Shown: positions 4,055 to 27,078 of the stretch, in pieces
Layout: every line of letters begins with the position of its first letter
Position numbering within the stretch: the first letter of the stretch is position 1
Origin: Candidatus Arthromitus sp. SFB-rat-Yit
Lineage (GTDB): Bacteria > Bacillota > Clostridia > Clostridiales > Clostridiaceae
NCBI RefSeq assembly: GCF_000283555.1
Contig: NC_016012.1
Location: forward strand, 120,001-152,000
Direction: 5' to 3'
Length of the DNA: 32,000 bases
Position numbers and translations under genes: made by a program
Notes under the pieces: generated by a model
The model's database searches: none
Told to the model about the DNA's origin: nothing
Seen by the model: only the letters and a program-made list of their open reading frames with translations

Positions 4055-5194
4055 ATGATTAAACTTATTATATTTGATGAGGCTAGCGAGATAGTAAATA
4101 TAGAGAAGTTTTTAAGAGATGATGTATGTGTTGTTGGTTATTTAAAGAGTGATACGAGTTATTTTGATGAGTGTATAAATGGTATTAAAATTTATAATTT
4201 AAATGATTTACCTAATATTTTATCAGAGCTTGAGTTTGATTATATTTTGGTAAATAGCAGGAGATATAGCGTAATTTATGATAAGATAAGGGAGATGAAT
4301 ATTAATCCAGGATGCATATTAGATGTATCATTCTTTTTTTATGATTTAATAAGTAGTGAGATTAAAGATAAGCTTTCATATTTTAAAAGAGTAGAGAGTT
4401 TAAATTTTGATATTGTATTTATGGGGAGAAATTATATAAAAGATAGGTTTATTTATGATCAATTTAATAATTGTATGAATATGTCTAATATTTTTTCAGA
4501 TGTGCATTATGATTATCATCTTTTATACTCTCTTATAAAAAGTAACAAAATACATAACTATACTAAGATAGGGATTTTTACGAATTATTCTATGATTTAT
4601 GAAAATATAGACTTAAAGGATGATAAATACGATTTTATTAAAATATTTGAGGATATATTTTCTGTACATAATAGTGTGAGTACGAGAAATACTTTTTCAG
4701 CTTTTTGTTATAAAAATTTTAAAAATAATATGATCAAGGTATTTAAAAAATTTAATTTAGATGATATTGTATTTGGTGATAATTTTGATATATCTTTTTT
4801 TGAAGATGAAAAGATTAAGTACGAAACTCAAATAGAAACTATAAATCATAAAGAAGCTAGTATTATAGCATTTAAGATGAATAAGAACATAATAACTCAA
4901 ACCATAAAGATACTTAAGGATCGTGGCATAGATGTATTTTTTATAGTACCTCCAGTACATAGATTGTATAGAACGTATATAAATAAAACTCTCCAAAAAG
5001 AATTTTATATGATTTTAAATAAAAGTTTAAATGATAAGTTATGTATATTAGATTATTTTGATAGAGAATTTGATGATAGTTATTTTTCTTCACCATGTAA
5101 TTTAAATTATAATGGATGTAGAGAATTTTTAAAAATTCTAAGAAAAGATATGAATAATAAATTTTTAGATATTACGGTTTGTAATAATTTATAG
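4055..5194 (+). CDS. Hypothetical protein (379 aa; N-terminal Rossmann-like segment, no family recognised)
   Basis: Long ORF preceded by AAGGAGA 6 nt upstream of the ATG. The N-terminus MIKLIIFDEA...VVGYL...DYILVNS looks like a small nucleotide-binding or CoA-binding-type fold. The remainder is unrecognised. Confidence 0.6.
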   Translation: MIKLIIFDEASEIVNIEKFLRDDVCVVGYLKSDTSYFDECINGIKIYNLNDLPNILSELEFDYILVNSRRYSVIYDKIREMNINPGCILDVSFFFYDLISSEIKDKLSYFKRVESLNFDIVFMGRNYIKDRFIYDQFNNCMNMSNIFSDVHYDYHLLYSLIKSNKIHNYTKIGIFTNYSMIYENIDLKDDKYDFIKIFEDIFSVHNSVSTRNTFSAFCYKNFKNNMIKVFKKFNLDDIVFGDNFDISFFEDEKIKYETQIETINHKEASIIAFKMNKNIITQTIKILKDRGIDVFFIVPPVHRLYRTYINKTLQKEFYMILNKSLNDKLCILDYFDREFDDSYFSSPCNLNYNGCREFLKILRKDMNNKFLDITVCNNL

Positions 5195-7788: not shown

Positions 7789-8748
7789 TTAAGTACTATT
7801 TATTTTTATTAAATTTCCAGAGTTATTTATAATAATGTTTAATGGTATATCTTTTAGTGATTCTTTTAACTTAATAAAGTATTTTGAGTGTAGAGGAGGA
7901 CCTATTATATATATTTTTACTTCTTCTCCTGGTTTTAATATTTTGTTCTCTATACCGTAATTTATAAATGATGGAATAGAGTGATTTATTTTTTTAATTA
8001 TTTGTTTATTTTGTTTGATCATTTTTTGTGCTGATTTTGTTTTGGGCATATAAGAGAGTATATAACCGTTATAATTCATTTTCATATGCATTGTTAAATT
8101 CATTTCCATGATGATATAGTTATTTGGGATATTAAATATCATGAAATATGTAATTATTAATGAAAATACGATTAAATAGATTTTATATTTAAAACTTAAT
8201 GAGAATCTATTTTTGTTTTTGTAAATAAATAGTTCTCCCTTTTTATGTTTAATTTTCCTTTTGACAAAAATATTTAAATGTTCATCTAAGATTACAGAAT
8301 GTTTTTGATTTTTTTCAATGATAATGCTTAAACATTCTCTGTTTTCATCTACCATTGAAAGCTTTGAATTATTGAATAAATAAAATGATAGGTGTGAGCA
8401 ACTTTTATCAGTAAAAAGAATTACATAGAGCTTTATAAGTTCTATATTTTTTTTGTATATATAAAGATTGTGTTTGTTTGATGTATTTTCTTTTATTATC
8501 TTAAATAATATGGAGTTATTTATTTTATATATTTTGTTATTCTTTAAATATATTGATATATTTTTAGATAGTATTAAGCATTTACATTTTTCTAAGGATG
8601 ATATATTATTTAAGTTATTAAAATCTATATTTTTTAGATATATACTTTGACTTAAGAATGCATAGAGATCTTTTAAAATGTTATATTTTGGGTTGTATTT
8701 ATTCAAATTAATAATATCATTCATAAAACTATCCTCTATGGTAAACAA
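7789..8748 (-). CDS. Single-pass membrane protein with an internal RsgI_N-like (anti-sigma-factor N-terminal) segment
   Basis: The segment ECLSIIIEKNQKHSVILDEHLNIFVKRKIKHKKGELF resembles the RsgI N-terminal domain. It is followed by a TM helix (IYLIVFSLIITYFMIF) and an extracytoplasmic tail. About 130 unassigned residues precede it. Confidence 0.35.
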   Translation of the reverse strand: MFTIEDSFMNDIINLNKYNPKYNILKDLYAFLSQSIYLKNIDFNNLNNISSLEKCKCLILSKNISIYLKNNKIYKINNSILFKIIKENTSNKHNLYIYKKNIELIKLYVILFTDKSCSHLSFYLFNNSKLSMVDENRECLSIIIEKNQKHSVILDEHLNIFVKRKIKHKKGELFIYKNKNRFSLSFKYKIYLIVFSLIITYFMIFNIPNNYIIMEMNLTMHMKMNYNGYILSYMPKTKSAQKMIKQNKQIIKKINHSIPSFINYGIENKILKPGEEVKIYIIGPPLHSKYFIKLKESLKDIPLNIIINNSGNLIKINST

Positions 8749-10118: not shown

Positions 10119-10152
10119 AGCTATGATTTCATAGCTTTATTTTTGTTTTTTG
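10118..10152. terminator. Bidirectional terminator between the ArsC-like gene and the convergent 10137..10766 gene
   Basis: Perfect inverted repeat AAAGCTATGA / TCATAGCTTT (10118-10139) followed by ATTTTTGTTTTTT. An A-run upstream serves the minus strand. Confidence 0.7.
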
Positions 10153-10766
10153 GGAGTAATATCTGAGAATTCAGATATTTTGAAACATTCTCCTGTATTT
10201 TCTATTGATAAGGTTTGCTTTAGGAGTTGAGTATATCCATCCGTATGTAATGATTTATATGTAATTTCATAGTTATAAAGAGTTTTAGATATTTTTTTTG
10301 GTTTAGATATTGTAAAAGATTGTATTATATTTTGATTTTGTTCAATGAACCATGATGGATTATCTTTGAATAAATTCTTAAGCTGATTTTTTAAATTATC
10401 ATTTGAAATTATAAATAATAAAGTTCCATTCTTCTCTTTTATTCCGTTTGCCCAGAGTGTTGCCACTTCATCTTTATTTAATATTTTTACAAAATTTGAA
10501 GATTGTTCCCAAAGGGTATTTCTAAAACTTAAATTCTCAATTATTTTTAGATATATTTTTTTAATGTTTTCAAGTGTTATAAGTGGATCATCAGAGGATT
10601 CAGATTCCTCAACATTTTGTGGTTGATCCATAACTTGAGGAGGTTCTTCAATTATTGAAACCTCACAAGAATTTTTAATTTTCTTTTTGTTAGTTAAAGA
10701 GTATACTGGATTTACATTACACAAAGTATACATAACGATCATAGCAGATAAAATGAGCTTCTTCAT
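10137..10766 (-). CDS. Hypothetical secreted protein (possible lipoprotein)
   Basis: N-terminal signal peptide MKKLILSAMIVMYTLCNVNPVYS, followed by an acidic linker and a globular domain with no recognised family. Confidence 0.6.
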   Translation of the reverse strand: MKKLILSAMIVMYTLCNVNPVYSLTNKKKIKNSCEVSIIEEPPQVMDQPQNVEESESSDDPLITLENIKKIYLKIIENLSFRNTLWEQSSNFVKILNKDEVATLWANGIKEKNGTLLFIISNDNLKNQLKNLFKDNPSWFIEQNQNIIQSFTISKPKKISKTLYNYEITYKSLHTDGYTQLLKQTLSIENTGECFKISEFSDITPKKQK

Positions 10767-10844: not shown

Positions 10845-10881
10845 AAAAATAAAAACAACACACCATAAGTATGTTGTTTTT
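10845..10881 (-). terminator. Terminator of the DUF1540 gene
   Basis: Stem AAAAACAACA / TGTTGTTTTT (10851-10860 / 10872-10881) with a T-run on the minus strand downstream. Confidence 0.5.
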
Positions 10882-11239
10882 ATTTACAAAAAGTATTACA
10901 ATAAGTAAAGTTTGAGTTTGCGGCATCACTGCCTATAATATTTATACTTTGGGAGGAGCACATACCTGATTCGTTGAATTTGCAAGCTTTCGCATCGCAC
11001 TCAATTTCTGGATACATAACTATACCAGAGTTTGTAAAAAATTGTTTAATTTCTCCGTTTATATTTAAATTAGATAAGGAGTTTATAGTGTTTTCTAAAT
11101 TTTTTTCTTGAAATGTTGAGCAATGAGTATCTGGAGTTATGGATGCGTTTAATCCACTTATATGAATTTTATTTGCAGTACACATATTATTGGTATAATG
11201 GACGCAATTGTTTGCAGAGCAACTCAGGGAACCATTCAT
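10880..11239 (-). CDS. DUF1540 domain-containing Cys-rich protein (two repeats)
   Basis: Two copies of the pattern C-x3-C-x6-8-C-x-A/S-x2-I-x-I/V-x-G...C-x-T-F: LSCSANNCVHYTNNMCTANKIHISG...THCSTF and IECDAKACKFNESGMCSSQSINIIG...TYCNTF. Confidence 0.7.
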   Translation of the reverse strand: MNGSLSCSANNCVHYTNNMCTANKIHISGLNASITPDTHCSTFQEKNLENTINSLSNLNINGEIKQFFTNSGIVMYPEIECDAKACKFNESGMCSSQSINIIGSDAANSNFTYCNTFCK

Positions 11240-12236: not shown

Positions 12237-12374
12237 AACGAAGTTTGTAACGATTTAAAATTATTCTCATATATTAGAATTAAAAAATATTTTATAAGTT
12301 ATGAATATTTTTAAAAAGTATGAGGATGCAAATATAAAATAGTTAAAATATTAGGGCAATGATCAAATATATAG

Positions 12375-12410
12375 AAGATGCTTCCAAATACGGGAGCATC
12401 TTATTTTTTT
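12375..12410 (+). terminator. Rho-independent terminator about 140 nt downstream of the yitT-like stop
   Basis: AAGATGCTTCC-AAATAC-GGGAGCATCTT (11-bp stem, one G-U pair) followed by ATTTTTTT. Confidence 0.65.
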
Positions 12411-12461
12411 ATCATGGTTTAGATTTACACATAAATTATTAATTTAAAAGGAGATTTTAAA

Positions 12462-13262
12462 TTGGAAAATAGAGCTGCAACAAATACGAATTTTATATTG
12501 AATTTTATATTGTTTACACAATCTTATAATTTGCCAAATGAGCTTATACTTGATAATACAGGCTTTTATTATGCTTATGATCCATCTAAAACCTTAGTTG
12601 ATAATAGTCTTATCAATTTATCGATTGGTAACGAAGGGGTTTTTATGATACTCAAAGCTTTAAATACAAATAAAACACTTACTATTAATTTATCAAATAC
12701 TTCAACTCAGATAACTAATTATAATTTAAATTATAAATGTTTGGATACTCCATATGGATTTAAATTGTCAGATGTTATAAATAATTTAGGAATGGATTTT
12801 AATGATATTAGTATGAATTTCAAAGATGGGACTGGAGTAGGAGATGCAAATCTATCATTAACTCAAACAGGATTTTTTGTATTAAATGATGGTAATAGAA
12901 CAGTTACATTTAATTTTATTATAGAAAATAATGGAAGCGAGGTTGCAAGAAAAGTATTATTTAAAGACATTTTGCCTGATGGAGTTAGTCTGAAACTTTC
13001 AGGTGTTTATATAAATTCAGTTTATGCGAGTAGTAGTGATGTGAAGCTTAATTCTAAGAGTTTGTTTGTTAAACTTCCTGATATAGAGATTGGAGAAACG
13101 CTTACACTTACAATTGTTTGTGCACTAAATGGTGAACCGTGTAATGAGTTTAACGTTGGAGTTATAAGTTATGTTTCAAAAGTAATTCAAGATGCAACTA
13201 CTGCACAAACAGCTGATATAACAATTAAACAAATTACTAGTAATTCCAAGGAAATACAATAG
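12462..13262 (+). CDS. Paralogue 1 (266 aa) of an uncharacterised four-member family; DUF11-like Ig-type C-terminal domain
   Basis: TTG start 7 nt after AAGGAG. Shares with the next three genes the blocks ELILDNTGFYY, DTPYGFKLSDVINNLG, VTFNFIIENNG, KVLFKDILPDGV, LFVKLP...GETLTLTIVC and FNVGVISYVS. No signal peptide or TM helix. Confidence 0.85.
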   Translation: MENRAATNTNFILNFILFTQSYNLPNELILDNTGFYYAYDPSKTLVDNSLINLSIGNEGVFMILKALNTNKTLTINLSNTSTQITNYNLNYKCLDTPYGFKLSDVINNLGMDFNDISMNFKDGTGVGDANLSLTQTGFFVLNDGNRTVTFNFIIENNGSEVARKVLFKDILPDGVSLKLSGVYINSVYASSSDVKLNSKSLFVKLPDIEIGETLTLTIVCALNGEPCNEFNVGVISYVSKVIQDATTAQTADITIKQITSNSKEIQ

Positions 13263-13391
13263 TTAATAAAGTCATTTATAATTTAGTAACATTTAATAAT
13301 GGATAAACATATATTTAAAATAAAAACTTAATAATTTTATTTTAGTATGTGGGTACGAAAAATAATTAATTTAATTAAAATAATAAATCTT

Positions 13392-13420
13392 AAAGTGCCT
13401 TTGAATTAGGGCACTTTTTT
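13392..13420 (+). terminator. Rho-independent terminator or attenuator between paralogue 1 and the downstream copies
   Basis: AAAGTGCC(T)-loop-(G)GGCACTTT with core stem AGTGCC/GGCACT, followed by T6. Confidence 0.7.
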
Positions 13421-13444
13421 AAAAATTAAAATGGGAGCGATATT

Positions 13445-13609
13445 ATGGATAATAATGTTTTTAAAAGAGTTAATAGAGAGGTATTTGATAATGAGGTTCC
13501 ATTTTCAATATATGAAATTGAAAAAATTATTTTAGGAGATAATTTAAGTTCAAATTTTAGAGGAGGAAATGGAAGTTATTATAAAATAGAGGAAATTTTA
13601 GATAAGTAG
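13445..13609 (+). CDS. Small ORF (54 aa), hypothetical
   Basis: Not in the ORF track because it is below the size cut-off. GGGAG lies 7 nt upstream of ATG 13445. Translation is MDNNVFKRVNREVFDNEVPFSIYEIEKIILGDNLSSNFRGGNGSYYKIEEILDK, ending with stop TAG 13607-13609, 45 nt before paralogue 2. Confidence 0.4.
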   Translation: MDNNVFKRVNREVFDNEVPFSIYEIEKIILGDNLSSNFRGGNGSYYKIEEILDK

Positions 13610-13654
13610 AATGATTAAATTAAATTTATAAATTTATGTTATGAGGTTATTAAA

Positions 13655-14557
13655 ATGGAGCAAGATAAGTTAAAAGATATAGATATAAATGAATTTAAGA
13701 ATAATGGTGATTTTAGAGTAAATGCTAATATCACTGATGTAAAACTTGATATTAAGTTGGTTCATCCTTCAAATAATTTTTTTGGAATAAGTAACCAGCT
13801 TATTTTAGATAATTTAGGTAATGTGTATATATTAAAACCTCAAGGTACAAATACTTTGGATAACGGAGCATTTTCTCCTCCGCTTAATATAGAAGGACTT
13901 TTAGTAGATATTAACACGGTTAATGATGATAAAATGTTAGAACTTGATTTAGAAGCATCATCAAGTGATATTTCTGATTTAAATAAATGCATGGATACTC
14001 CATATGGATTTAAGTTATCTCAAGTTATGAATAATATAGGAGATATGAGTACACTTAATATTACAAATGGAACAAATGGAGATGCACAATTAACAGATAC
14101 TATAATTAAAACAGGTGCACGTTTAATTATTAATCAGAGAGCTTTTTCAATAATAAGAGGAAATACAAAATATTTTTTATTTAATTTTAATATTAAAAAT
14201 GTTGGGGAATTCATTGCTCAAAAGGTACTGTTTAAAGATATTATCCCAAATGGTTTAACTTTATGTAATAGAGGGATGTATATTAAAAACAATAATTCTC
14301 AGATGGTTAGAATATCTAGGGATAATTATACAATAAATGGAAGAGAATTATTGTTAACACTTCAAAATATCGATGAAAATGATGTTGTTTCTCTGGTTTT
14401 GGTCTGTTTTGAAAATTCATGTAATGACTCCAAGAATTTTAATGTCGGATGCATAAGTTATGTTTCTTATTATGGAGTTAATGATGAAACAAATACAACT
14501 AGTTCTAGAACTTTAGTTATAAATGATATTAGCAATACTAAAAAAATTTTCGGGTAA
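13655..14557 (+). CDS. Paralogue 2 (300 aa) of the uncharacterised family
   Basis: Conserved blocks QLILDNLGNVY, DTPYGFKLSQVMNNIG, FLFNFNIKNVG, KVLFKDIIPNGL, LLLTL...VVSLVLVC and FNVGCISYVS. No signal peptide. Confidence 0.85.
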   Translation: MEQDKLKDIDINEFKNNGDFRVNANITDVKLDIKLVHPSNNFFGISNQLILDNLGNVYILKPQGTNTLDNGAFSPPLNIEGLLVDINTVNDDKMLELDLEASSSDISDLNKCMDTPYGFKLSQVMNNIGDMSTLNITNGTNGDAQLTDTIIKTGARLIINQRAFSIIRGNTKYFLFNFNIKNVGEFIAQKVLFKDIIPNGLTLCNRGMYIKNNNSQMVRISRDNYTINGRELLLTLQNIDENDVVSLVLVCFENSCNDSKNFNVGCISYVSYYGVNDETNTTSSRTLVINDISNTKKIFG

Positions 14558-14572
14558 AGGAGTAATTCAAAT

Positions 14573-15487
14573 ATGAATGATTTCGTAGAAACTGAATCAG
14601 AGATTACTCCGCATTATTTACAAGGTAATGAAAATTTAAATAATAATACTAATCAAGATAATAAAAAATATGTAATTTATTTGGTTAACAAAGCTCCTGG
14701 TGAAAACTCAGAGATAATTAATGACCTTATTTTAGATAACTGGGGAGATTATTACTATGATTATAGATCTACAGAATTAAACTCAGTAGTTGAACCGCTT
14801 AGGTTTAATTCTAATGGATTTTCATTTATATTATCTTCTTTGAATGATGATAGATATGTAAAAATTAATTTATATAAAACTCATCAAGATAGAAATGAGA
14901 ATTTAATTCCTCCAAGAGATTTAAATAAAAGATATTTATATATTGATATTTCAAATGGATTTAAGCTATCTCAAATTATGAATAATCTCTTAGATATTGA
15001 CCAAATATCTTTAGATGGTAAATTAAATGGAGAAAATTTTGATAATATATCTGAACCAGAACTTACAATAACTCAAAAAATAAATTTAGAACGTTATGAT
15101 TCATTTAATCGTGTAACTTTCATATTTAATATATCAAGTTTGAGTGTTCCAGCTAAAATAGTTTTACCGGCAAGAAGGGTTTTATTTAAGGATATACTTC
15201 CACAGGGTGTTTTATTTAAAGGTGTTCTTTTAAATGGTAAGCATTATGATGATGAATGTATTAATTTAAATGGTCGGAGATTATTCATAAAATTACCCGT
15301 TATAAAAGATGGAGAAAGTATTGAAATTAGCATTGTGTGTTTAATAGATAAAGTAAGAGATACCGGTTTAAATGTAGGTGCATTAACCTACGTTTCTAAT
15401 AATTTATTAAATAAGCAAGATAATACATTAACAACAAATGTTTATACTCTTTTAAGTAATGCATTAAATTTAGAAGATATGATTTAA
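14573..15487 (+). CDS. Paralogue 3 (304 aa) of the uncharacterised family (most divergent core)
   Basis: AAGGAG upstream, with the start 15 nt after the paralogue 2 stop. Blocks are DLILDNWGDYYY, DISNGFKLSQIMNNL, VTFIFNIS, RVLFKDILPQGV, LFIKLP...GESIEISIVC and LNVGALTYVS. Confidence 0.85.
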   Translation: MNDFVETESEITPHYLQGNENLNNNTNQDNKKYVIYLVNKAPGENSEIINDLILDNWGDYYYDYRSTELNSVVEPLRFNSNGFSFILSSLNDDRYVKINLYKTHQDRNENLIPPRDLNKRYLYIDISNGFKLSQIMNNLLDIDQISLDGKLNGENFDNISEPELTITQKINLERYDSFNRVTFIFNISSLSVPAKIVLPARRVLFKDILPQGVLFKGVLLNGKHYDDECINLNGRRLFIKLPVIKDGESIEISIVCLIDKVRDTGLNVGALTYVSNNLLNKQDNTLTTNVYTLLSNALNLEDMI

Positions 15488-15561
15488 ATTAAGTAACTTT
15501 TTTATTTTATTCTCATATAGTCTAAGTAAGATGGTTTATTATTTTTCTAAGGACGGAGTTT

Positions 15562-16581
15562 ATGGATACGAATAAAATTAATGATATTAATAATGTTATG
15601 AAAATTTGTGATGAATCTTTTGAAATTGAAGGAGATTCGTTTACTTTTTTAAACATTCAAAACATTATGGAAGAAAGTCAAAATTTAAATCATGTTAATT
15701 CAGATGAATGTAGTATATGTTTTGATGTAAATTGTGATTTTAAAGAGGATAAAATTGATGTAAATTGCGATGATTCCAGTTTATTTGAAGATAAAAAATG
15801 TCTTGATATACAAAAATATTTTTTGGAAATAAACTTGAAAAAATCAGGAGAGAATCCTTACAGTATTGCAAACAACTTAATATTAGATAGTTGTGGGAAT
15901 TATAGTTGTGATATTAATCAATTTTTATTAGATGGTATGAAATTTTTTCCAAATATATATAAGAAGGGAATACTTGAAAATATATATTCGATAAATAGTG
16001 ATAGACATTTAGAATTTAGTTTGTGTGATATTTCAAATAATCATGTTGATTTTAAAGATGAGGAGAGGGCGGATACATCTTATGGATTTAAGTTATCTCA
16101 AATCATATCAAATTTAGGAGATTTATCACAAATCGATAAAAATTTAAATATTAACGAACTTGGAGAGATAAAATTCACTCAAAATGCTGTTATATTTAGT
16201 AAATGTAACCGAAAGCATATAATTTTTAGCTTTAAACTTAAAAACGTTGGGAATACTACTTCAAGTAAAATATTATTTAAAGATGTATTTCCAAGAAGTG
16301 TTAATATTTATGAAAATGCCATTTTCGTAAATGGGAAATATATAAATAAAGAAAGTATTAGTATATGCGGAAGAAGAGTTGTTATAAAATTTGATGATCT
16401 TTGTGCAGGTGAGGAAATTGACATTATAATGGTTGGTTCATTTAGAGAAGATTGTGATTCTATAAATTGTGGTGTAATTAGTTACGTTGATGGATTTAAG
16501 GAAAGTAATGGTATTAAGGTAATGAGTATTGTTCAAATTTTAAGTAACATTAAAACCTTGAAATTAAAAGGATGTAATTAA
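15562..16581 (+). CDS. Paralogue 4 (339 aa) of the uncharacterised family, with an acidic Cys-rich N-terminal extension of about 84 aa
   Basis: Blocks NLILDSCGNY, DTSYGFKLSQIISNLG, IIFSFKLKNVG, KILFKDVFPRSV, VVIKF...GEEIDIIMV and INCGVISYV. The extension contains six Cys and a duplicated DVNCD motif. Confidence 0.85.
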   Translation: MDTNKINDINNVMKICDESFEIEGDSFTFLNIQNIMEESQNLNHVNSDECSICFDVNCDFKEDKIDVNCDDSSLFEDKKCLDIQKYFLEINLKKSGENPYSIANNLILDSCGNYSCDINQFLLDGMKFFPNIYKKGILENIYSINSDRHLEFSLCDISNNHVDFKDEERADTSYGFKLSQIISNLGDLSQIDKNLNINELGEIKFTQNAVIFSKCNRKHIIFSFKLKNVGNTTSSKILFKDVFPRSVNIYENAIFVNGKYINKESISICGRRVVIKFDDLCAGEEIDIIMVGSFREDCDSINCGVISYVDGFKESNGIKVMSIVQILSNIKTLKLKGCN

Positions 16582-16596
16582 TTACATCCTTTTTTG
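16566..16596 (+). terminator. Rho-independent terminator ending the paralogue cluster
   Basis: Perfect palindrome AAAAGGATGTAATT/AATTACATCCTTTT (16566-16593) containing the paralogue 4 stop codon, followed by a T-run. Confidence 0.75.
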
Positions 16597-16766: not shown

Positions 16767-18086
16767 ATGATTTTAAAGAGAAATAGTTCTACCTTATTTG
16801 TAGTTTTTTTATTAATTTTTTCAGCTCTTATAGTTTTATTTTTATCGTCTAAAGTAGTTAAAGGTATAAAGTTTAAAAATGAAATAAATGTAAGGGTTTG
16901 TAAAGTTCAATCGGGGAATGTTCAAGAACAAATAGATGTTAAAGTATTTATAAAATCTAAAAATTATAAAGAATATTATGGCAATCAACTGAGGGTTAAA
17001 AAGTTGTATGTTAGGCATGGAGATTATGTTGAGAAGGGGCAAAAACTCCTATCTTTTGATAACAATGATATTATGACTCAGTATACTCAAGCAAAGATAC
17101 AACTTGAGAATGCTATGTTGCAAAAAAATCAGATGATTATAACAAGAGATAATTTTAAAAAACAAAGGATAGCTATACAGGAAGAAATAAATAGACTTAG
17201 GGAGAGTCAAGAAGATAATGAAAGTTTTATTGCAGAGCTTGAGGAATCTTTTGAAGATAAAAAAGCTATTTCTTCAAAAAATAGTTTAACATTATCTGAT
17301 TATAGCGATGAGATTGATAAGCTTGTAAAAGAGAGCGAAGGATTAAGAAAGATTTCATTAGAGCTAGAGAGACAAATGGATAATATACCTGAGATTACAG
17401 ATGATCAAATAAAACTTTTGGATAATGCCATAGTTTTGGCAGAGAGCAGTTTAAAAAATATTTCAGATAAGATTGAAATTTCTAAAGATATAACAGCCGA
17501 TTTTAGTGGAGTTATAACTAGTGTAAAAATAAATGAGGGAAGTTATACTCAACCGGGATCTGTTATATTGGTTCTTCAGGATCTTCAAAATGTAAAAGGA
17601 ATTTCTCTAATTCCACAACAAAATATTTCGAGCGTGAAGATTGGTCAGGAGATTGTGATAAATGACCCTATTGGAGTTTATAATGGGAAAATAATCTCTA
17701 TAAGTGATTTGGCGGTAAATTCTAATAGTTATTTAAATATTGTTAGTGAAGATATGAGGGATAATTATTTGGTTGCTGATATTGAGATATTAAATCCTAA
17801 TGATAAGTTGAAGGTTGATTTTGATTTAAATGGGAAAATAAATTTAGACAACACCACGGATATTTTGAGGATACCTATAGAATGTGTGTTGTACGATGAA
17901 TCTAATACTCCGTATGTTTTTATAGTTAAGAATGATATTGCATATAAAAATACAATATATCCTGGTAGGGTTTTTAATAATTACATAGAGATTGTTGGGG
18001 GATTAACTTTAAATGATAGTATAATTTTAAATCCTCCGAAAAATTTATCTAACAGCTCAAAGGTAAAGGTTGTATCAAATAAATGA
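16767..18086 (+). CDS. HlyD/MacA-type periplasmic adaptor (membrane-fusion) protein
   Basis: N-terminal TM anchor (LFVVFLLIFSALIVLFL), then a lipoyl/barrel-sandwich segment (YVRHGDYVEKGQKLLSF) and a long coiled-coil hairpin. A second half-lipoyl segment follows (GVITSVKINEGSYTQPGSVILVL), then a beta-barrel C-terminus. Resembles YknX/MacA. Confidence 0.8.
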   Translation: MILKRNSSTLFVVFLLIFSALIVLFLSSKVVKGIKFKNEINVRVCKVQSGNVQEQIDVKVFIKSKNYKEYYGNQLRVKKLYVRHGDYVEKGQKLLSFDNNDIMTQYTQAKIQLENAMLQKNQMIITRDNFKKQRIAIQEEINRLRESQEDNESFIAELEESFEDKKAISSKNSLTLSDYSDEIDKLVKESEGLRKISLELERQMDNIPEITDDQIKLLDNAIVLAESSLKNISDKIEISKDITADFSGVITSVKINEGSYTQPGSVILVLQDLQNVKGISLIPQQNISSVKIGQEIVINDPIGVYNGKIISISDLAVNSNSYLNIVSEDMRDNYLVADIEILNPNDKLKVDFDLNGKINLDNTTDILRIPIECVLYDESNTPYVFIVKNDIAYKNTIYPGRVFNNYIEIVGGLTLNDSIILNPPKNLSNSSKVKVVSNK

Positions 18087-18742
18087 TAAATTTTAGTAAC
18101 ATAACAAAGTTTTATAAAAAGAGAAATTTAGAATATAGGGCTTTATATGATGTATCTTTTGATATAAATCCTGGAGATTACATCTTTATATGTGGAGATA
18201 GAGGATCTGGTAAAACTACGTTATTAAATATTTTGGGATGTGTTAGTGATTTTGATTATGGGAAGTATACATTTTATGGAATAGATATAGGAAGCAAAAA
18301 TGATAGAGAATTATCTAAACTTAGAAATGAAAGATTTTGTTTTATACCTGAGGGAGATAGTTTAATACCTGAACTTAATTTATTTGAAAATGTTAGTATA
18401 CCACTTTTATATTCAAAAATTTCGAGGGAAGAAAAGAGAAGTAGAGTACTTAAATATTTATCTATGCTATCTATAGATAAATATAAATATTTACATATTG
18501 ATTCCCTTTGTATGAGAGATAGGAAAATGATATGCATAGCAAGAGCCCTTGTTGGAGGTGGAGATATCATTATAGCAGATGAACTTTTTGAGTATTTAGA
18601 TGAAAGTGATTGTGAAATTATATTTAATATTTTATTTGGCTTAAATAAAAAAGGGGCTACTTTAATAATAAGCGGTAACAAACTCAATAAATACTCTTAT
18701 GGAAGTAGGATTATAAACTTGAGGGATGGAATGAAGGTATAA
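18083..18742 (+). CDS. ABC transporter ATP-binding protein (MacB/LolD/YknY class) with degenerate Q-loop, signature and H-loop
   Basis: ATGA start/stop overlap with the adaptor gene. Walker A GDRGSGKTT and Walker B IIIADE are present. The Q-loop Q is replaced by E (FIPEGDSL), LSGGQ by LCMRD, and the H-loop TH by SG (LIISGN). Confidence 0.8.
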   Translation: MINFSNITKFYKKRNLEYRALYDVSFDINPGDYIFICGDRGSGKTTLLNILGCVSDFDYGKYTFYGIDIGSKNDRELSKLRNERFCFIPEGDSLIPELNLFENVSIPLLYSKISREEKRSRVLKYLSMLSIDKYKYLHIDSLCMRDRKMICIARALVGGGDIIIADELFEYLDESDCEIIFNILFGLNKKGATLIISGNKLNKYSYGSRIINLRDGMKV

Positions 18743-18759
18743 AAATAGGAGAGATATAT

Positions 18760-19938
18760 GTGATTATTGATCATATTAATTTATCTTTAAAGTTAATTTT
18801 TAAAAATAAATTTAGAATGCTTACATCAATAATTGGAATAATTACAGGGTTTATTTTACTTATAATTTCTTTTTCATTGTTAAAAATTGGGGAGATTAAG
18901 TTAACATCTAGCACAGATAAGATAGGAAAAAATATTATTAAAATAAATGTAATAAATTCTGAAAAATGTTTTAAAAATTACTTTAATTTTGATGATATAA
19001 AGTTTTTGAAGGATTCAAATTTGTCTATAAATTCAATTTCTCCAGAGCTTTATTTTAAAGGGATTGTAAATAATGAATTCTGTGATTTATCATCTTATAT
19101 TATAGGTGGAACTGAAGATTATAAAGATTTTATGATGATGGATATGGTAAACGGAAGATTCTTTTCAGAACATGAGTGTTTAAATAAGGAAAATGTAATA
19201 ATAATCGACAATGTTACAAGTAATAATCTATTTGGAACAGAAGATTCTATAGATAAAGAAGTTTATATAGGGCAATGCCCATCTAAATTGTATAAATATA
19301 GAGTAATTGGAGTTATTAAACATCCATCCAATATATGGAAAGATAATGAAAATACATTATCTTTTTCAGTAGTGCCTATTTCAACATACATAAAAAATTT
19401 TAACCAAGATCCATTTTTTGAGTATTTATATATTTCTCTGAAGAGTAAACAAGATATGAATTTAATTGGGGAATCAATAATTAATTTTTTGAAGGTTAAA
19501 AATAACATTAGAAAAGATATATATAAACTTGAAAACTTTTTAAGGTTAGAAGATAAAATATATGAAGTAAATAATTTAATAACAAAAATAGTAAAGATAA
19601 CCGGATATATATTTATTTTCATAAGCGGAATTATAATAACAAATGTAATGATTTTTAATATTTATAGTAGAAAAAATGAAATAAGCATTAGGAAAATATG
19701 CGGTGCGAATAAATATGATATATTTATTCAATTTATACGAGAATCTTTTATATTGTCCTTAATAGGGGGGATATTTGGGGTTTTATTAGGAAGTATGGTA
19801 ACTATTTTTTTATCAAGTGTGATAAATGAAAATTTAAGTACTAATTTTATAAATTTGTTTAAAATTCTGATAATTTCTTTAGTTACAGGAGTTATATTTG
19901 CTATATTTCCAGCTATTAAGAGTTGTAATCCAAATTAA
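18760..19938 (+). CDS. ABC transporter permease, FtsX/MacB family (extracytoplasmic MacB_PCD-like loop + FtsX domain)
   Basis: GTG start 6 nt after AGGAGAG. TM1 is NKFRMLTSIIGIITGFILLI, followed by a large loop and the C-terminal three-TM FtsX block (RKICGANKYDIFIQFIRESFILSLIGGIFGVLLG). Confidence 0.8.
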   Translation: MIIDHINLSLKLIFKNKFRMLTSIIGIITGFILLIISFSLLKIGEIKLTSSTDKIGKNIIKINVINSEKCFKNYFNFDDIKFLKDSNLSINSISPELYFKGIVNNEFCDLSSYIIGGTEDYKDFMMMDMVNGRFFSEHECLNKENVIIIDNVTSNNLFGTEDSIDKEVYIGQCPSKLYKYRVIGVIKHPSNIWKDNENTLSFSVVPISTYIKNFNQDPFFEYLYISLKSKQDMNLIGESIINFLKVKNNIRKDIYKLENFLRLEDKIYEVNNLITKIVKITGYIFIFISGIIITNVMIFNIYSRKNEISIRKICGANKYDIFIQFIRESFILSLIGGIFGVLLGSMVTIFLSSVINENLSTNFINLFKILIISLVTGVIFAIFPAIKSCNPN

Positions 19939-20014: not shown

Positions 20015-20446
20015 TTGTTATATAATGATGAATTTAATAATCATATTTCAACTGAAACAGGGAATTTAGATAATGCATATTTTGGGAATACTATAGGTGA
20101 TATCAATGCTTCTCAAGACAGCATCTCAAACATTGTGCAGTATTACAATAATCGTGAATCTTATCTAAAGAATTTAGCAAGTAATTTTTCAGGGAATAAT
20201 TCAGGTATAGAGAATCAAATAATTGATTTATTCAATAATGTTAGAAGTGTTTTAGAAAATAGAGATTTAAATCTTATGAAAAATTCTATAAATTCTATTT
20301 CTCAAGGAAGAGAGAATGCTATTAGATTTATAAATGATCAGAATAATTATTTAGATGAAAGCACAAAGCAAATTATGAATGTAATAATAGATGAGTATTC
20401 TAATCATTTAAATTATTTAAATAAGGCTATTGAATTTTTAGAATAA
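20015..20446 (+). CDS. Hypothetical soluble N/Q/S-rich helical protein (143 aa)
   Basis: TTG start after AGGGGGA. No TM helix or signal peptide and no recognised motif. Confidence 0.55.
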   Translation: MLYNDEFNNHISTETGNLDNAYFGNTIGDINASQDSISNIVQYYNNRESYLKNLASNFSGNNSGIENQIIDLFNNVRSVLENRDLNLMKNSINSISQGRENAIRFINDQNNYLDESTKQIMNVIIDEYSNHLNYLNKAIEFLE

Positions 20447-20498
20447 TTAACTTAATAAATATTTTTACTACTGTTTAAGTTTTAAGAGGGAGATTATA

Positions 20499-21596
20499 GT
20501 GAACCATATAGTTAGTAGACGTAACAATACTTCGACTGTTTATATATTATTCATATCATATTTTATATTTTTATTAACTACACTTTTGGGAATAACACAA
20601 CATAGTGTTAGGGAGAATTTGAATTTTTTGCAAGATAAGTACAATGAAATTAATGATAAGTATAATTATTTAATAAATAATATGTCTGTGGGAAATATAG
20701 AGGAGAATAATAGGGAAGTTATTTATTTAGATGAAATGAGGAATGAGATACTTGATAGCGTAGGTAAGGAAGGAGAATTTTGGAAGGCTGAGCTAAAAAA
20801 TATAATATTACAAAAAGAGAAATTATTATCAGAGAATTTTATGAATAAAAAAGATGAACTTCATAATAAAAGTTACTTACATTTAAAAAATGAAATTGAT
20901 GAGTATAATTTGTATTATAGCTTAGGTAAGAAACCTTTAGATTATCTAGATGGATTCTTTATAAGATATTTTCTCTTTCTTTTTAATAGCTTAGGTCATC
21001 AAATATTCTTAACTTGTATAGTTTTAGGAGTATGCTATTTATATATAAGTGATGTAAAATACATAGGATTTTCAAAAACGATGTTCGTTAGTTGTATACC
21101 TATATTGTGTATACAAATATTTAGTCTAATTTGTTGCATAGCATTAGATGACAAAACAGATATATACTACCCAGTTAGAATTGTGCAGGATTTTAATATT
21201 TATAATTTCAATAACAATGTATCAGCTGTAAATGACATTATTCCTCTACACATTGCTATTTTTAGAGTTTTGTTATTGGAAGTATTATATATAGCCTTTA
21301 TTGTTAGTTTTATAAAAATAATTGATTTAATATTTACAAAGTATTATATGAAAATTATTGGAGCATTTATTTTTTTATTCAGTATGTTTGGTATGTTATA
21401 TACTAGATATTCAAGTATATCATTTCTATCCTACGGTAAATTTTTAAATATAGTTAGAGGGTACGAAGCTATTTATAATGAAAACATGTATTTGAGTATA
21501 AATTTCTTATTCATATTTGTATTCTTTATCTTAATAGTTTTAAGTTTTATATATTTCTTAAAAAAATATTTTTTAAATGACGAATACATAGTATAG
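20499..21596 (+). CDS. Hypothetical multi-pass membrane protein (TM1, helical loop of about 110 aa, then about 5 TM; ABC-2-permease-like topology)
   Basis: GTG start 6 nt after GAGGGAG. Hydrophobic segments run VYILFISYFIFLLTTLLGI, then FFIRYFLFLFNSLGHQIFLTCIVLGVCYLY, through to INFLFIFVFFILIVLSFIYF. Confidence 0.6.
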   Translation: MNHIVSRRNNTSTVYILFISYFIFLLTTLLGITQHSVRENLNFLQDKYNEINDKYNYLINNMSVGNIEENNREVIYLDEMRNEILDSVGKEGEFWKAELKNIILQKEKLLSENFMNKKDELHNKSYLHLKNEIDEYNLYYSLGKKPLDYLDGFFIRYFLFLFNSLGHQIFLTCIVLGVCYLYISDVKYIGFSKTMFVSCIPILCIQIFSLICCIALDDKTDIYYPVRIVQDFNIYNFNNNVSAVNDIIPLHIAIFRVLLLEVLYIAFIVSFIKIIDLIFTKYYMKIIGAFIFLFSMFGMLYTRYSSISFLSYGKFLNIVRGYEAIYNENMYLSINFLFIFVFFILIVLSFIYFLKKYFLNDEYIV

Positions 21597-21605
21597 AAAA
21601 TCAAA

Positions 21606-22028
21606 TTAACTGGTGTATATGAAATTTATATTGCAGTCTTTTACCCATCCAGTTAGCTTATTTTTATCTTGATTGATTATTAAAATTTCATACCATAATA
21701 CATCCATTATGTATATTTTTGAAATTATATTTAATCTGGAATTTTTAGATAAGTCCAATATTTTTGGAGAAAAATCAAATGGTGCCAGTCTTATTGGTGT
21801 AATATTTTTAATATATACATTTTTTATATTTAATGGTATTGGTTTAAGTTCAAGGTTTTTAATATGATTCATATTGTCGTAAATATTTTTTGAATCATTG
21901 ATTTTTTTTAGTAATAAATGATTTTGTTTAGTTAAATATAAAATTTTTATTTTTTGTTTTTCGATTTTATTAAAAAGATATAAAATCATTACAGATATTG
22001 ATATAATTAAGATAATAAATATTTTCAT
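21606..22028 (-). CDS. Membrane-anchored protein with C-terminal bacterial SH3 (SH3b)-like domain
   Basis: I trimmed the start to Met29 (MKIFIILIISISVMILYLF) because GAGGT lies 7 nt upstream. The C-terminus IRLAPFDFSPKILDLSKNSRLNIISK...WYEILI...KLTGWVKD fits the SH3_3 pattern. Confidence 0.55.
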   Translation of the reverse strand: MKIFIILIISISVMILYLFNKIEKQKIKILYLTKQNHLLLKKINDSKNIYDNMNHIKNLELKPIPLNIKNVYIKNITPIRLAPFDFSPKILDLSKNSRLNIISKIYIMDVLWYEILIINQDKNKLTGWVKDCNINFIYTS

Positions 22029-22105
22029 ATTCTGAACCTCGAGATTAATTTTTATATAAATATATTGAATTAAAAATAGAAATATGAAAAAAAATAAAAA
22101 AAGTA

Positions 22106-22135
22106 TTGACATAGGGGAGGTAAGTTTGGTACTAT
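22106..22135 (+). promoter_or_regulatory. rRNA operon promoter (sigma-A, extended -10, A-rich UP-like element)
   Basis: TTGACA (22106-22111), an 18-nt spacer, then TGgTACTAT (22127-22135). It is preceded by AAAAAAAATAAAAAAAG and lies about 105 nt upstream of the 16S gene. Confidence 0.7.
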
Positions 22136-22239: not shown

Positions 22240-23765
<1,526 letters not shown>

Positions 23766-23775
23766 AATGAAAGAG

Positions 23776-23810
23776 AGAACTTTTTCCTATTCAATTGTGA
23801 GTGACCTAAT
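23776..23810 (+). other. 3' half of the pre-16S processing stem (in the 16S-23S spacer)
   Basis: Complementary to 22172-22212 (see that feature). No tRNA-like sequence occurs anywhere in the spacer 23760-23942. Confidence 0.65.
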
Positions 23811-23942
23811 AATATAGAGGTTACTTAATAAAAGAAATAAAGATCTTTGAAAATTGTATATAAATAGTAAATAATGCGAAAGGTAGCAAGTTAAATTATT
23901 AGCAATAGTAATTTAAGAGCTGGAAAAAATATATAACAAATA

Positions 23943-26835
<2,893 letters not shown>

Positions 26836-26893
26836 AATACTTAGCAAGTTATTATTTATATACAATTTTGAGAGATTAAAATATTTCTCAGTA

Positions 26894-27010
26894 TCTGGTG
26901 ATTATAACGTGTAGGTAACACCCCTATCCATACCGAACAGGAAGGTTAAGCTACACTGTGCTGATGGTACTTTAGGGTTACCCCTATGGAAGAGTAAGTC
27001 ATTGCCAGTT
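26894..27010 (+). rRNA. rrf: 5S ribosomal RNA
   Basis: TCTGGTGATTATAACG...CCATACCGAACAGGAAGGTTAAGC...GGTACTTTAGGG...GAGTAAGTCATTGCCAG, about 116 nt. Confidence 0.93.
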
Positions 27011-27016
27011 TGTTTC

Positions 27017-27048
27017 AGAAGTAAGAGCATCGCTCTTACTTCTTTTTG
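27017..27048 (+). terminator. rRNA operon terminator
   Basis: 12-bp stem AGAAGTAAGAGC-ATC-GCTCTTACTTCT followed by TTTTT. Confidence 0.85.
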
Positions 27049-27078
27049 TTTACTTACTATATATTATTTGGAGGAATT

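What the first reader, a model, noticed from the sequence alone, without database searches (positions are those of the whole stretch)
12462..16581. Four tandem paralogues of an unrecognised protein family: variable N-terminus, conserved core and DUF11-like Ig domain, no signal peptide
Four co-directional genes of 266, 300, 304 and 339 aa are clearly homologous along most of their length. The shared blocks, in order, are:
- an alternating-hydrophobic strand (FILNFILF / LDIKLVH / YVIYLVN / YFLEINLK);
- (E/Q/D/N)LILD(N/S)xGxYY;
- D(T/I)(P/S)(Y/N)GFKLS(D/Q)(V/I)(I/M)(N/S)N(L/I)G;
- a strand hhFxFxhxNxG;
- (K/R)(V/I)LFKD(I/V)(L/I/F)PxG(V/L);
- Lh(V/I/L)KLPxhxxGExhxhxhVC;
- (F/L/I)N(V/C)GxhSYV.
The C-terminal half, from VTFNFIIENNG through VLFKDILPDGV and GETLTLTIVC to NVGVISYVS, matches my recollection of the DUF11 / 'conserved repeat domain' Ig-like consensus (tvtYtitvtNtG...vvvtDtLPaGltfv...lgtLapGesvtvtvtv...NtA). 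The N-terminal two thirds match nothing I recognise. None of the four has a signal peptide, lipobox, TM helix or sortase motif, although Ig-like DUF11 domains and conserved Cys pairs usually mark surface, coat or fibre proteins. The N-terminal extension lengthens along the array (about 9, 28, 31 and 84 aa). In a reduced genome a four-copy family suggests a structural or host-interaction role, for example spore coat/exosporium, holdfast or filament-surface components.
Basis: partly seen in the sequence, partly recalled or inferred. Interest (0 to 1): 0.82.

Follow-up and report, generated by a model that had tools for sequence, protein, structure and literature searches.

The report
SFB-specific Ig-domain proteins, probably spore-surface
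Four neighbouring genes in a segmented filamentous bacterium encode a lineage-restricted family of two-domain beta-sandwich proteins with no export signal, and their conserved sporulation-type promoters suggest, without proving, that the mother cell makes them as building blocks of the spore surface or the offspring-cell surface.

Summary
Four co-directional paralogues of 266, 300, 304 and 339 aa (26-35% identical over the core) lie at the stated coordinates. None has a signal peptide or transmembrane helix.

The C-terminal half is a genuine DUF11 domain, now renamed CLIPPER. Pfam scores ORF1 above its threshold, and a profile-profile comparison with canonical repeats gives 99.3% probability. 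The lysine that forms the isopeptide bond is replaced by glutamine in 41 of 42 family members, while the Asp and Asn partners are kept. The N-terminal ~125 residues match nothing in Pfam, PDB or Foldseek.

All 42 full-length members recovered, and every locus examined, trace to SFB or SFB-like gut assemblies. They always sit between yitT and a yknXYZ-like ABC transporter. Copy number is 1, 4 or at least 10.

Three new points emerged:
- A sigma-K-type motif, GTAAC-N16/17-CATATA, occurs exactly three times in the 32 kb window (0.08 expected). Each copy lies just upstream of a transcription unit of the array, and the positions are conserved in four other lineages.
- A conserved 54-aa small ORF lies inside the array.
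- A conserved leader with a terminator-like hairpin precedes two of the units.

Best reading, at about 0.5 confidence: these are mother-cell-made structural proteins of the spore coat or exosporium, or of the intracellular offspring surface. There are no expression or localisation data. I class it as a new variant of a known kind, of moderate interest.

The parts
12247..12276 (+). Sigma-K-type promoter P1 (GTAAC-N16-CATATATTA) upstream of ORF1
   Evidence: One of only 3 matches to GTAAC-N16/17-CATATA in the 32 kb window (0.08 expected). The same element sits at the orthologous position in L002, L005 and L009. It fits the consensus [a/c]AC[a/c]-N16-CATA-N3-TA quoted in PMC5749712.
12318..12329 (+). 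Leader mini-hairpin GUAU-GAGG-AUGC, with a Shine-Dalgarno-like loop
   Evidence: The box AGTATGAGGATGCA is conserved in the window, L002, L003 and L005 and is predicted as a 4-bp stem. Its function is unknown.
12375..12402 (+). Terminator-like hairpin (11 bp) plus a T-run inside the ORF1 leader
   Evidence: Found by the terminator scan and by folding. The structure is kept in other lineages with changed arm sequences.
12462..13262 (+). Paralogue 1 (266 aa, 29.3 kDa): N-terminal beta domain, CLIPPER/DUF11 domain (about residues 128-245), C-terminal strand
   Evidence: AF2 pLDDT 83.8, pTM 0.85. The mouse orthologue is 75% identical.
13286..13316 (+). Sigma-K-type promoter P2 (GTAAC-N17-CATATATTT) upstream of the small ORF and ORF2-ORF3
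13345..13356 (+). Second copy of the leader mini-hairpin (GUAU-GUGG-GUAC)
13392..13417 (+). Second terminator-like hairpin plus T-run, 28 nt upstream of the small-ORF start codon
   Evidence: an nhmmer model of the leader matches only these two places in the window.
13445..13609 (+). Conserved small ORF (54 aa; MDN..F...PFSxYEIExII.G...FRG....EEILD)
   Evidence: Present at the same position in L002, L003 and L005. It is 72% identical between rat and mouse, with dN/dS 0.20. It shares the motif xFSxxEIExII with the N-terminal extension of ORF4-type proteins (P=0.011).
13655..14557 (+). Paralogue 2 (300 aa)
   Evidence: Identical to P0002, named Ca. Arthromitus sp. SFB-rat-Yit.
14573..15487 (+). 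Paralogue 3 (304 aa), 15 nt after ORF2 and so probably co-transcribed
15493..15522 (+). Sigma-K-type promoter P3 (GTAAC-N16-CATATAGTC) directly upstream of ORF4, with no leader hairpin
   Evidence: Also present upstream of the ORF4-type genes in L003, L005 and L009.
15562..16581 (+). Paralogue 4 (339 aa, 15 Cys): acidic, Cys-rich 84-aa N-terminal extension and a C-terminal KGCN
   Evidence: The ORF4 type is the member kept in every locus that reaches this end of the array, and it lies next to yknX.
16566..16593 (+). Intrinsic terminator (12-bp stem plus T-run) that closes the array
10880..11239 (-). Context: gene with two DUF1540 domains (the domain of the C. difficile exosporium protein CdeA)
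   Evidence: Pfam E 8e-19. CdeA carries DUF1540 (PMC7677010). Syntenic in all loci.
16767..19938 (+). Context: YknX/HlyD-like adaptor, ABC ATPase and MacB/FtsX permease, a separate operon that always flanks the array

Best explanation
The four genes, together with a conserved 54-aa ORF, encode an SFB-restricted family of acidic proteins of about 30-39 kDa. Each protein has three parts: an N-terminal beta domain with no recognisable relatives; a single CLIPPER/DUF11 Ig-like domain; and a short conserved C-terminal strand joined by a variable linker. I propose that the sporulating mother cell transcribes them from sigma-K-type promoters. The proteins would then assemble, without crossing a membrane, onto the developing spore as outer-coat, exosporium or appendage components. 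They might instead coat the SFB intracellular offspring, which are made with the same machinery. Assembly would rest on beta-sandwich self-association and, for the Cys-rich ORF4 type, on disulfide cross-links. It would not rest on the Lys-Asn isopeptide bond of canonical CLIPPER domains, because that lysine is glutamine here. Shown: homology, domain content, absence of export signals, the Lys-to-Gln replacement, the motif statistics and their conservation, synteny, copy-number variation and purifying selection. Inferred: sigma-K dependence, mother-cell expression, spore-surface location and the mode of assembly.
For: (1) GTAAC-N16/17-CATATA occurs 3 times in 32 kb against 0.08 expected. All three are on the + strand and lie 40-215 nt upstream of ORF1, the small ORF and ORF4. 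The same elements sit at the orthologous positions in L002, L003, L005 and L009. They fit the sigma-K consensus used for Clostridium spore-appendage genes.
(2) There is no signal peptide or TM helix. That is what one expects for proteins laid down from the mother-cell cytoplasm.
(3) The C-terminal domain is DUF11/CLIPPER, and the AF2 model is an all-beta fold (pLDDT 83.8). This domain class is found in cell-surface and spore-appendage proteins.
(4) Ca. [quoted passage not shown]
(5) A gene with the CdeA-type DUF1540 domain is a conserved neighbour.
(6) ORF4-type members carry Cys-rich termini (15 Cys).
(7) The genes are real and under constraint, yet evolve faster than their neighbours: dN/dS 0.20-0.35 against 0.02-0.18, and rat-mouse identity 67-75% against 78-95%. 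Copy number is 1, 4 or at least 10. This pattern is typical of exposed structural proteins.
(8) Precedent: the C. taeniosporum appendage cluster has tandem co-directional paralogues of 269 aa, relatives that contain DUF11, and sigma-K promoters.
Against: No transcript, protein or localisation data for these genes were found in the searchable literature. The promoter assignment rests only on a consensus taken from other genera. No known sigma-K regulon gene lies in the window to calibrate it. The -10 element also fits sigma-E. Two of the three units carry a strong terminator-like hairpin between the promoter and the ribosome-binding site, and I cannot explain it. The DUF1540 gene is transcribed divergently, is separated from the array by yitT, and shows no such promoter. 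Fast evolution is shared by the adjacent ABC and FtsX genes. Structure searches returned only generic beta-sandwich hits.
Confidence: 0.5

Rival explanations
1. Offspring or holdfast coat. The proteins are made in the mother cell but deposited on the non-dormant intracellular offspring. There they would form the surface or tip that contacts host epithelium, and so contribute to host-specific attachment.
For: SFB offspring are formed inside a mother cell before spores differentiate (PMC3371716), so the same promoter logic applies. CLIPPER domains are typical of adhesin stalks. Divergence is rapid and copy number varies from 1 to at least 10 between host-specific lineages.
Against: No adhesive domain was recognised and the N-domain has no structural match. 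Nothing separates this reading from the spore-coat reading except localisation data, which do not exist.
Confidence: 0.2
2. Vegetative surface or secreted proteins exported without a signal peptide, for example by the adjacent YknXYZ/MacB-type ABC system or by the flagellar export apparatus.
For: Synteny with the HlyD/ABC/FtsX operon is invariant in every locus. The ABC and FtsX genes evolve as fast as the paralogues. The N-termini are variable.
Against: A 12-bp terminator separates the array from the transporter operon. The promoters are of the sporulation type and not sigma-A-like. From general knowledge, MacB-type systems are not known to translocate folded 30-kDa proteins across the membrane. 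No secretion motif was found.
Confidence: 0.08
3. Cytoplasmic proteins with a non-structural role, such as regulatory or scaffold functions in SFB differentiation.
For: There is no export signal. The N-domain is of unknown function. A small-ORF partner and a complex leader hint at regulation.
Against: Ig-like CLIPPER domains are overwhelmingly extracytoplasmic or structural. Multi-copy tandem expansion and fast divergence are unusual for regulators. No catalytic or nucleic-acid-binding signature was found.
Confidence: 0.1
4. Remnant of a prophage or mobile element that encodes virion structural proteins.
For: There are weak sub-threshold PHROG hits (E 0.02-0.04). A resolvase fragment lies nearby in one lineage (L009).
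Against: The chromosomal position is fixed between yitT and yknX in all lineages. No significant PHROG, PADLOC or BFVD match was found. Base composition matches the flanks.
Confidence: 0.02

Closest known systems
DUF11 / CLIPPER domain (Pfam PF01345; crystal structure 9IFR, PMC12617251)
   Same: The C-terminal domain (about residues 128-245 of ORF1) is homologous. Pfam scores ORF1 above its threshold, and hhalign against canonical repeats gives 99.3%. The model predicts a nine-strand beta-sandwich. The Asp and Asn of the isopeptide triad are conserved.
   Different: The isopeptide lysine is Gln in 41 of 42 members, against Lys in 44 of 48 canonical repeats. There is a single domain, not tandem repeats. 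The proteins are 266-523 aa, not thousands. They have no signal peptide, adhesin head or sorting signal. They add a family-specific N-domain, an invariant Lys in LFKD, and a C-terminal 'Q..SN.K' strand.
Clostridium taeniosporum spore-appendage cluster (P29a, P29b, CRD1, CRD2; PMC5749712)
   Same: Both are tandem, co-directional paralogues of similar size (269 aa against 266-339 aa). Relatives in the cluster contain DUF11. Putative sigma-K promoters of the same consensus are present. Both organisms are clostridial spore formers.
   Different: SFB has no collagen-like GP85/CL2 partner in the locus. No spore appendages have been described for SFB in the papers read.
Cys-rich exosporium and coat morphogenetic proteins (C. 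difficile CdeA, CdeC, CdeM; PMC7677010)
   Same: They lack signal peptides, are made in the mother cell and have Cys-rich segments. A CdeA-type DUF1540 gene neighbours the array.
   Different: There is no sequence similarity to the paralogues themselves. Only the ORF4 type is Cys-rich.
Endospore appendage subunits (Ena1/3, F-ENA; PMC12357932)
   Same: They are small beta-sandwich subunits with terminal connector peptides and Cys residues that link subunits. In some Clostridia, F-Anchor proteins contain DUF11 domains.
   Different: No DUF3992 or DUF4183 match was found. Ena3A is only a non-significant Foldseek hit to the N-domain (E 1.3, TM 0.21).

Membership tests
DUF11 / CLIPPER (PF01345) | Sequence match to the family profile | tested here: met
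   ORF1 scores 28.1 bits against a cutoff of 24.6. ORF2-4 do not pass individually. The family C-domain profile against 48 canonical repeats gives hhalign 99.3%, E 1.2e-20. The family profile hits 1628 proteins, mostly giant DUF11 repeat proteins.
DUF11 / CLIPPER (PF01345) | Ig-like (CnaA-like) beta-sandwich of 7-9 strands | tested here: met
   The AF2 model has nine strands between residues 131 and 259, with pLDDT mostly 88-97. Foldseek hits include Cna and BslA Ig-like domains (TMt 0.47-0.58). This is a prediction, not an experiment.
DUF11 / CLIPPER (PF01345) | Intramolecular Lys-Asn isopeptide bond catalysed by Asp (K715, D748, N806 in 9IFR) | tested here: not met
   At the aligned positions the family has Q (41/42), D (40/42) and N (41/42). 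Canonical repeats have K (44/48), D (47/48) and N (46/48). PMC12617251 notes that some DUF11 domains lack the bond, so this does not exclude membership of the domain family.
Fibrillar adhesin (usual context of CLIPPER) | Signal peptide, tandem stalk repeats, adhesive head, sorting signal | tested here: not met
   No hydrophobic N-terminus or TM helix. One DUF11 domain only. No other Pfam domain.
Sigma-K (late mother-cell) regulon | Promoter matching [a/c]AC[a/c]-N16(17)-CATA-N3-TA at a suitable distance from the start codon | tested here: met
   Three sites (12247, 13286, 15493), with 0.08 expected for the strict form. Conserved in four other lineages. The -10 TA is perfect in P1 and has one mismatch in P2 and P3.
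Sigma-K (late mother-cell) regulon | Transcription dependent on sigma-K, late in sporulation | not testable with these tools
   No expression data were found. No known sigma-K-dependent SFB gene was available to calibrate the motif.
C. taeniosporum P29/CRD appendage proteins | Sequence homology to P29a, P29b, CRD1 or CRD2 | not testable with these tools
   The sequences were not retrievable. Only the description in PMC5749712 was available.
C. taeniosporum P29/CRD appendage proteins | Tandem co-directional paralogue cluster with DUF11 and sigma-K promoters | tested here: met
   compared.
Ena / F-ENA endospore appendages | DUF3992 or DUF4183 subunit fold or sequence | tested here: not met
   No Pfam hit. 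Foldseek to Ena3A (8pdz) is non-significant.
Second (N-terminal) DUF11-like domain | Profile or structural similarity of residues 6-127 to DUF11 | tested here: inconclusive
   Full-length profile alignments to two giant proteins run in register across a preceding DUF11 repeat. The N-domain alone gives hhalign P=0.048 against canonical DUF11 and P=0.13 against its own C-domain. Its HMMER scores barely exceed reversed decoys. Constructs permuted with the C-terminal strand give no Pfam hit. Foldseek finds nothing.

The most novel reading that the evidence does not exclude
The family may form a previously undescribed, SFB-specific surface lattice or fibre on spores or on intracellular offspring. 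Subunits would be linked by exchange of the conserved C-terminal strand, which is tethered by a linker of 10 to about 60 residues, and by terminal disulfides. The strictly conserved Gln-Asp-Asn triad that replaces the Lys-Asp-Asn isopeptide triad could mark a different cross-linking chemistry, for example as a glutamine donor for intermolecular bonds. Lineage-specific expansion from 1 to at least 10 copies would then tune host specificity or antigenicity of this immunologically important symbiont. The conserved leader with its terminator-like hairpin would be a dedicated antitermination switch that times this programme.
Probability: 0.12. Interest if true: 0.8.

Novelty: new variant of a known kind. 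Interest (0 to 1): 0.5.

Why it matters
SFB are the model Th17-inducing gut symbionts. They are host-specific and spread as spores and as intracellular offspring. [quoted passage not shown]

A conserved, fast-evolving, sporulation-promoter-driven gene array whose copy number differs between host lineages gives concrete candidates for those surfaces. The candidates can be tested directly with antibodies, spore proteomics and promoter fusions.

The family is also a natural CLIPPER/DUF11 domain in which the isopeptide lysine is systematically glutamine. That makes it a useful comparator for understanding what the bond contributes to the domain.

Tried and rejected
- **PDB searches.** A sequence search of the PDB with the family profile found nothing meaningful, and 9IFR was not detected. 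Foldseek of the full model against PDB and BFVD gave only generic two-sandwich or Ig hits with TM of about 0.3 to 0.58. The N-domain alone gave no hit better than E 0.22.
- **N-domain as a cryptic DUF11 domain.** I tested whether the C-terminal strand completes it. Results: hhalign P 0.05-0.13, HMMER no better than reversed decoys, and permuted constructs gave no Pfam hit. Left as inconclusive.
- **Genome-contig scan.** The 17-sequence alignment returned only one locus, a chicken SFB-like MAG.
- **Metagenome scan for the leader.** The 14-mer AGTATGAGGATGCA returned 120 unrelated contigs, and none matched the leader HMM. That scan was wasted.
- **Rfam.** It has no family for the leader.
- **ORF3 length polymorphism.** The apparent variation among mouse SFB contigs is an artefact of N-runs in the assemblies.
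- **DUF1540 gene.** No sigma-K motif was found upstream of it.
- **Phage and defence origins.** PHROGs and PADLOC rule them out.
- **Literature.** Searches found no paper that discusses these genes.

Full report
**Observation.** The four ORFs exist exactly where reported: 12462-13262, 13655-14557, 14573-15487 and 15562-16581, all on the + strand. ORF1 starts at a TTG preceded by AAGGAG, and the mouse orthologue uses the same start. None has a hydrophobic N-terminus or a TM segment; the highest 19-residue hydropathy mean is 1.44. All are acidic (pI 4.6-4.85). ORF4 has 15 cysteines.

**Source and distribution.** ORF2 is identical to a protein that NCBI names as from Candidatus Arthromitus sp. 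SFB-rat-Yit, on a 1,515,556-bp contig.
- A word-indexed search found only 21 relatives.
- An exhaustive HMMER profile search of 1.84 billion representatives found 1628 hits. Apart from about 30 proteins of 280-520 aa that align end to end, all listed hits are giant multi-repeat proteins that match only profile positions of about 145-215.
- The full-length members sit on a handful of SFB-like contigs.
- The only hit among GTDB species representatives is a chicken-gut MAG, Ca. Dwaynia gallinarum, with the same gene order.
- No Pfam, NCBIfam, PHROG or PADLOC model covers the family as a whole.

**Locus.** In every lineage the array lies between a divergently transcribed DUF1540 gene plus yitT on one side and a yknX-like adaptor, ABC ATPase and MacB/FtsX permease operon on the other.
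- Copy number is 1 in L009, 4 in rat SFB, mouse SFB and L003, and at least 10 in L002, where the contig ends inside the array.
- The four window genes represent four orthologous types. The ORF4 type is the copy found beside yknX in every locus that reaches that end of the array. The L002 expansion is made of ORF1- and ORF2-type copies.
- A conserved ORF of 47-54 aa always precedes an ORF2-type gene (window 13445-13609).

**Architecture.** An AlphaFold2 model of ORF1, built on a 17-sequence family alignment, is confident (pLDDT 83.8, pTM 0.85) and all-beta. It has six strands and a short helix in residues 10-109, nine strands in 131-259, and a low-confidence linker (241-250) before a high-confidence terminal strand.
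- *C-terminal domain.* It is DUF11: Pfam scores 28.1 bits on ORF1 against a cutoff of 24.6, and hhalign against 48 canonical repeats gives 99.3%, E 1e-20.
- *The lysine replacement.* DUF11 was recently renamed CLIPPER and shown to carry a Lys-Asn isopeptide bond catalysed by Asp (PMC12617251). I aligned the family and canonical repeats to one HMM. The canonical repeats have K 44/48, D 47/48 and N 46/48 at the triad positions. The family has Q 41/42, D 40/42 and N 41/42. The canonical bond therefore cannot form, yet all three positions stay under strong constraint.
- *N-terminal domain.* It has no detectable relative: nothing in Pfam, nothing by sequence in the PDB, and no Foldseek hit better than E 0.22 for a separate N-domain model (pLDDT 78.6). 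Hints that it is a degenerate DUF11 domain are not significant. These hints are in-register alignments to two giant proteins and hhalign P=0.048.
- *Whole-model searches.* Searches of PDB and BFVD return only generic double-sandwich or Ig hits.

**Regulation.** The strict motif GTAAC-N16/17-CATATA occurs three times in the 32-kb window against 0.08 expected; none of 100 shuffles reached three. The sites are at 12247, 13286 and 15493, all on the + strand, in the gaps just upstream of ORF1, of the small ORF with ORF2-ORF3, and of ORF4. A looser version of the motif is not enriched. The same element is found at the orthologous positions in L002, L003, L005 (mouse) and L009. It fits the sigma-K consensus [a/c]AC[a/c]-N16-CATA-N3-TA used for Clostridium spore-appendage genes. 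The -10 element alone would also fit sigma-E, so the safe statement is 'mother-cell sporulation sigma factor, probably sigma-K'. Ca. Arthromitus encodes all four sporulation sigma factors. A 12-bp terminator closes the array at 16566-16593.

**Unexplained leader.** Between P1 and ORF1, and between P2 and the small ORF, lies a conserved leader. It has a 4-bp mini-hairpin with an SD-like GAGG loop and a strong hairpin of 10-13 bp followed by a T-run. Only 28 nt separate the second hairpin from the small-ORF start, so transcripts must read through it. The element occurs only at this locus among the sequences held and matches no Rfam family. ORF4-type genes, and the single gene of L009, have the promoter without the leader. 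It may be an attenuator or antitermination target, or an mRNA stabiliser.

**Evolution.** Rat and mouse orthologues are 67-75% identical, against 78-95% for most flanking genes. Against L003 the figures are 36-44% and 60-79%. dN/dS is 0.20-0.35 for the paralogues and 0.20 for the small ORF, against 0.02-0.18 for most neighbours; the ABC and FtsX genes are also fast, at 0.33 and 0.20. These are functional genes under relaxed or diversifying pressure.

**Interpretation.** The evidence points to proteins made in the mother-cell cytoplasm and laid onto the forespore. It consists of sporulation-type promoters, the absence of any export signal, an Ig-like domain class typical of surface and appendage proteins, Cys-rich termini in one type, a neighbouring CdeA-type gene, the known shortage of recognisable coat proteins in SFB, and the close organisational parallel with the C. 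taeniosporum appendage cluster. SFB also form non-dormant intracellular offspring inside mother cells, so an offspring or holdfast coat cannot be separated from a spore coat without localisation data. Export by the adjacent ABC system, a cytoplasmic role and a phage origin are each less likely, for the reasons given under rival explanations.

**Novelty.** The domain is known, and the concept of DUF11-containing spore-surface paralogue clusters has a precedent. Several things are new:
- the family itself, which the papers I could search do not describe;
- its restriction to SFB;
- the single CLIPPER domain with a Gln-Asp-Asn triad fused to an unmatched N-domain;
- the small-ORF partner, whose motif xFSxxEIExII recurs in the N-terminal extension of ORF4-type proteins (P=0.011);
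- the variable copy number;
- the promoter and leader arrangement.

I rate it a new variant of a known kind, of moderate interest.

Noticed in passing
It is present at the same position in mouse SFB (L005), L002 and L003, with dN/dS 0.20. Its central motif PFSxYEIExII resembles a motif in the N-terminal extension of ORF4-type proteins (hhalign P=0.011).
   Followed up: partly
window 12290-12420 and 13326-13444 (+): A conserved 5' leader sits between the sigma-K-type promoters and the coding starts. It has a mini-hairpin with a GAGG loop and a strong terminator-like hairpin plus T-run, only 8-60 nt from the ribosome-binding site. It is found only at this locus and has no Rfam match. It may be an attenuator or antitermination element.
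   Followed up: partly
window 10880-11239 (-): A 119-aa protein with two DUF1540 domains, the Cys-rich domain of the C. difficile exosporium protein CdeA. It is the most conserved gene of the neighbourhood (95% rat-mouse identity, dN/dS 0.02).
   Followed up: partly
window 16767-19938 (+): A YknX-like adaptor, ABC ATPase and MacB/FtsX permease operon always flanks the array. The ATPase and permease evolve as fast as the paralogues (69-73% rat-mouse identity, dN/dS 0.33 and 0.20), while the adaptor is conserved (87%, 0.06).
   Followed up: no
window 12462 compared with L005 8001: Rat ORF1 (266 aa) lacks about 25 N-terminal residues that the mouse orthologue (291 aa) has, although both use the same TTG start context. 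In other lineages ORF1-type proteins carry acidic low-complexity N-terminal extensions of about 200 aa (P0016 523 aa, P0021 470 aa).
   Followed up: no
L009 5531-6384: In the single-copy lineage, a 99-aa resolvase fragment and two small ORFs are inserted between the DUF1540 gene and yitT. This may be a mobile-element scar next to the locus.
   Followed up: no
window 22240-27010 (+): A complete rRNA operon (16S, 23S, 5S) with no tRNA gene in the 16S-23S spacer or anywhere else in the window. Its GC content is 43-48% against about 25% in the flanks.
   Followed up: no
window 4055-5194, 7789-8748, 10137-10766, 20015-22112, 27046-27984: Several conserved ORFs have no Pfam or NCBIfam match. They include a 209-aa protein with a signal-peptide-like N-terminus next to the DUF1540 gene, and a 365-aa protein downstream of the ABC operon whose counterpart in L001 reads as multi-pass membrane protein.
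   Followed up: no
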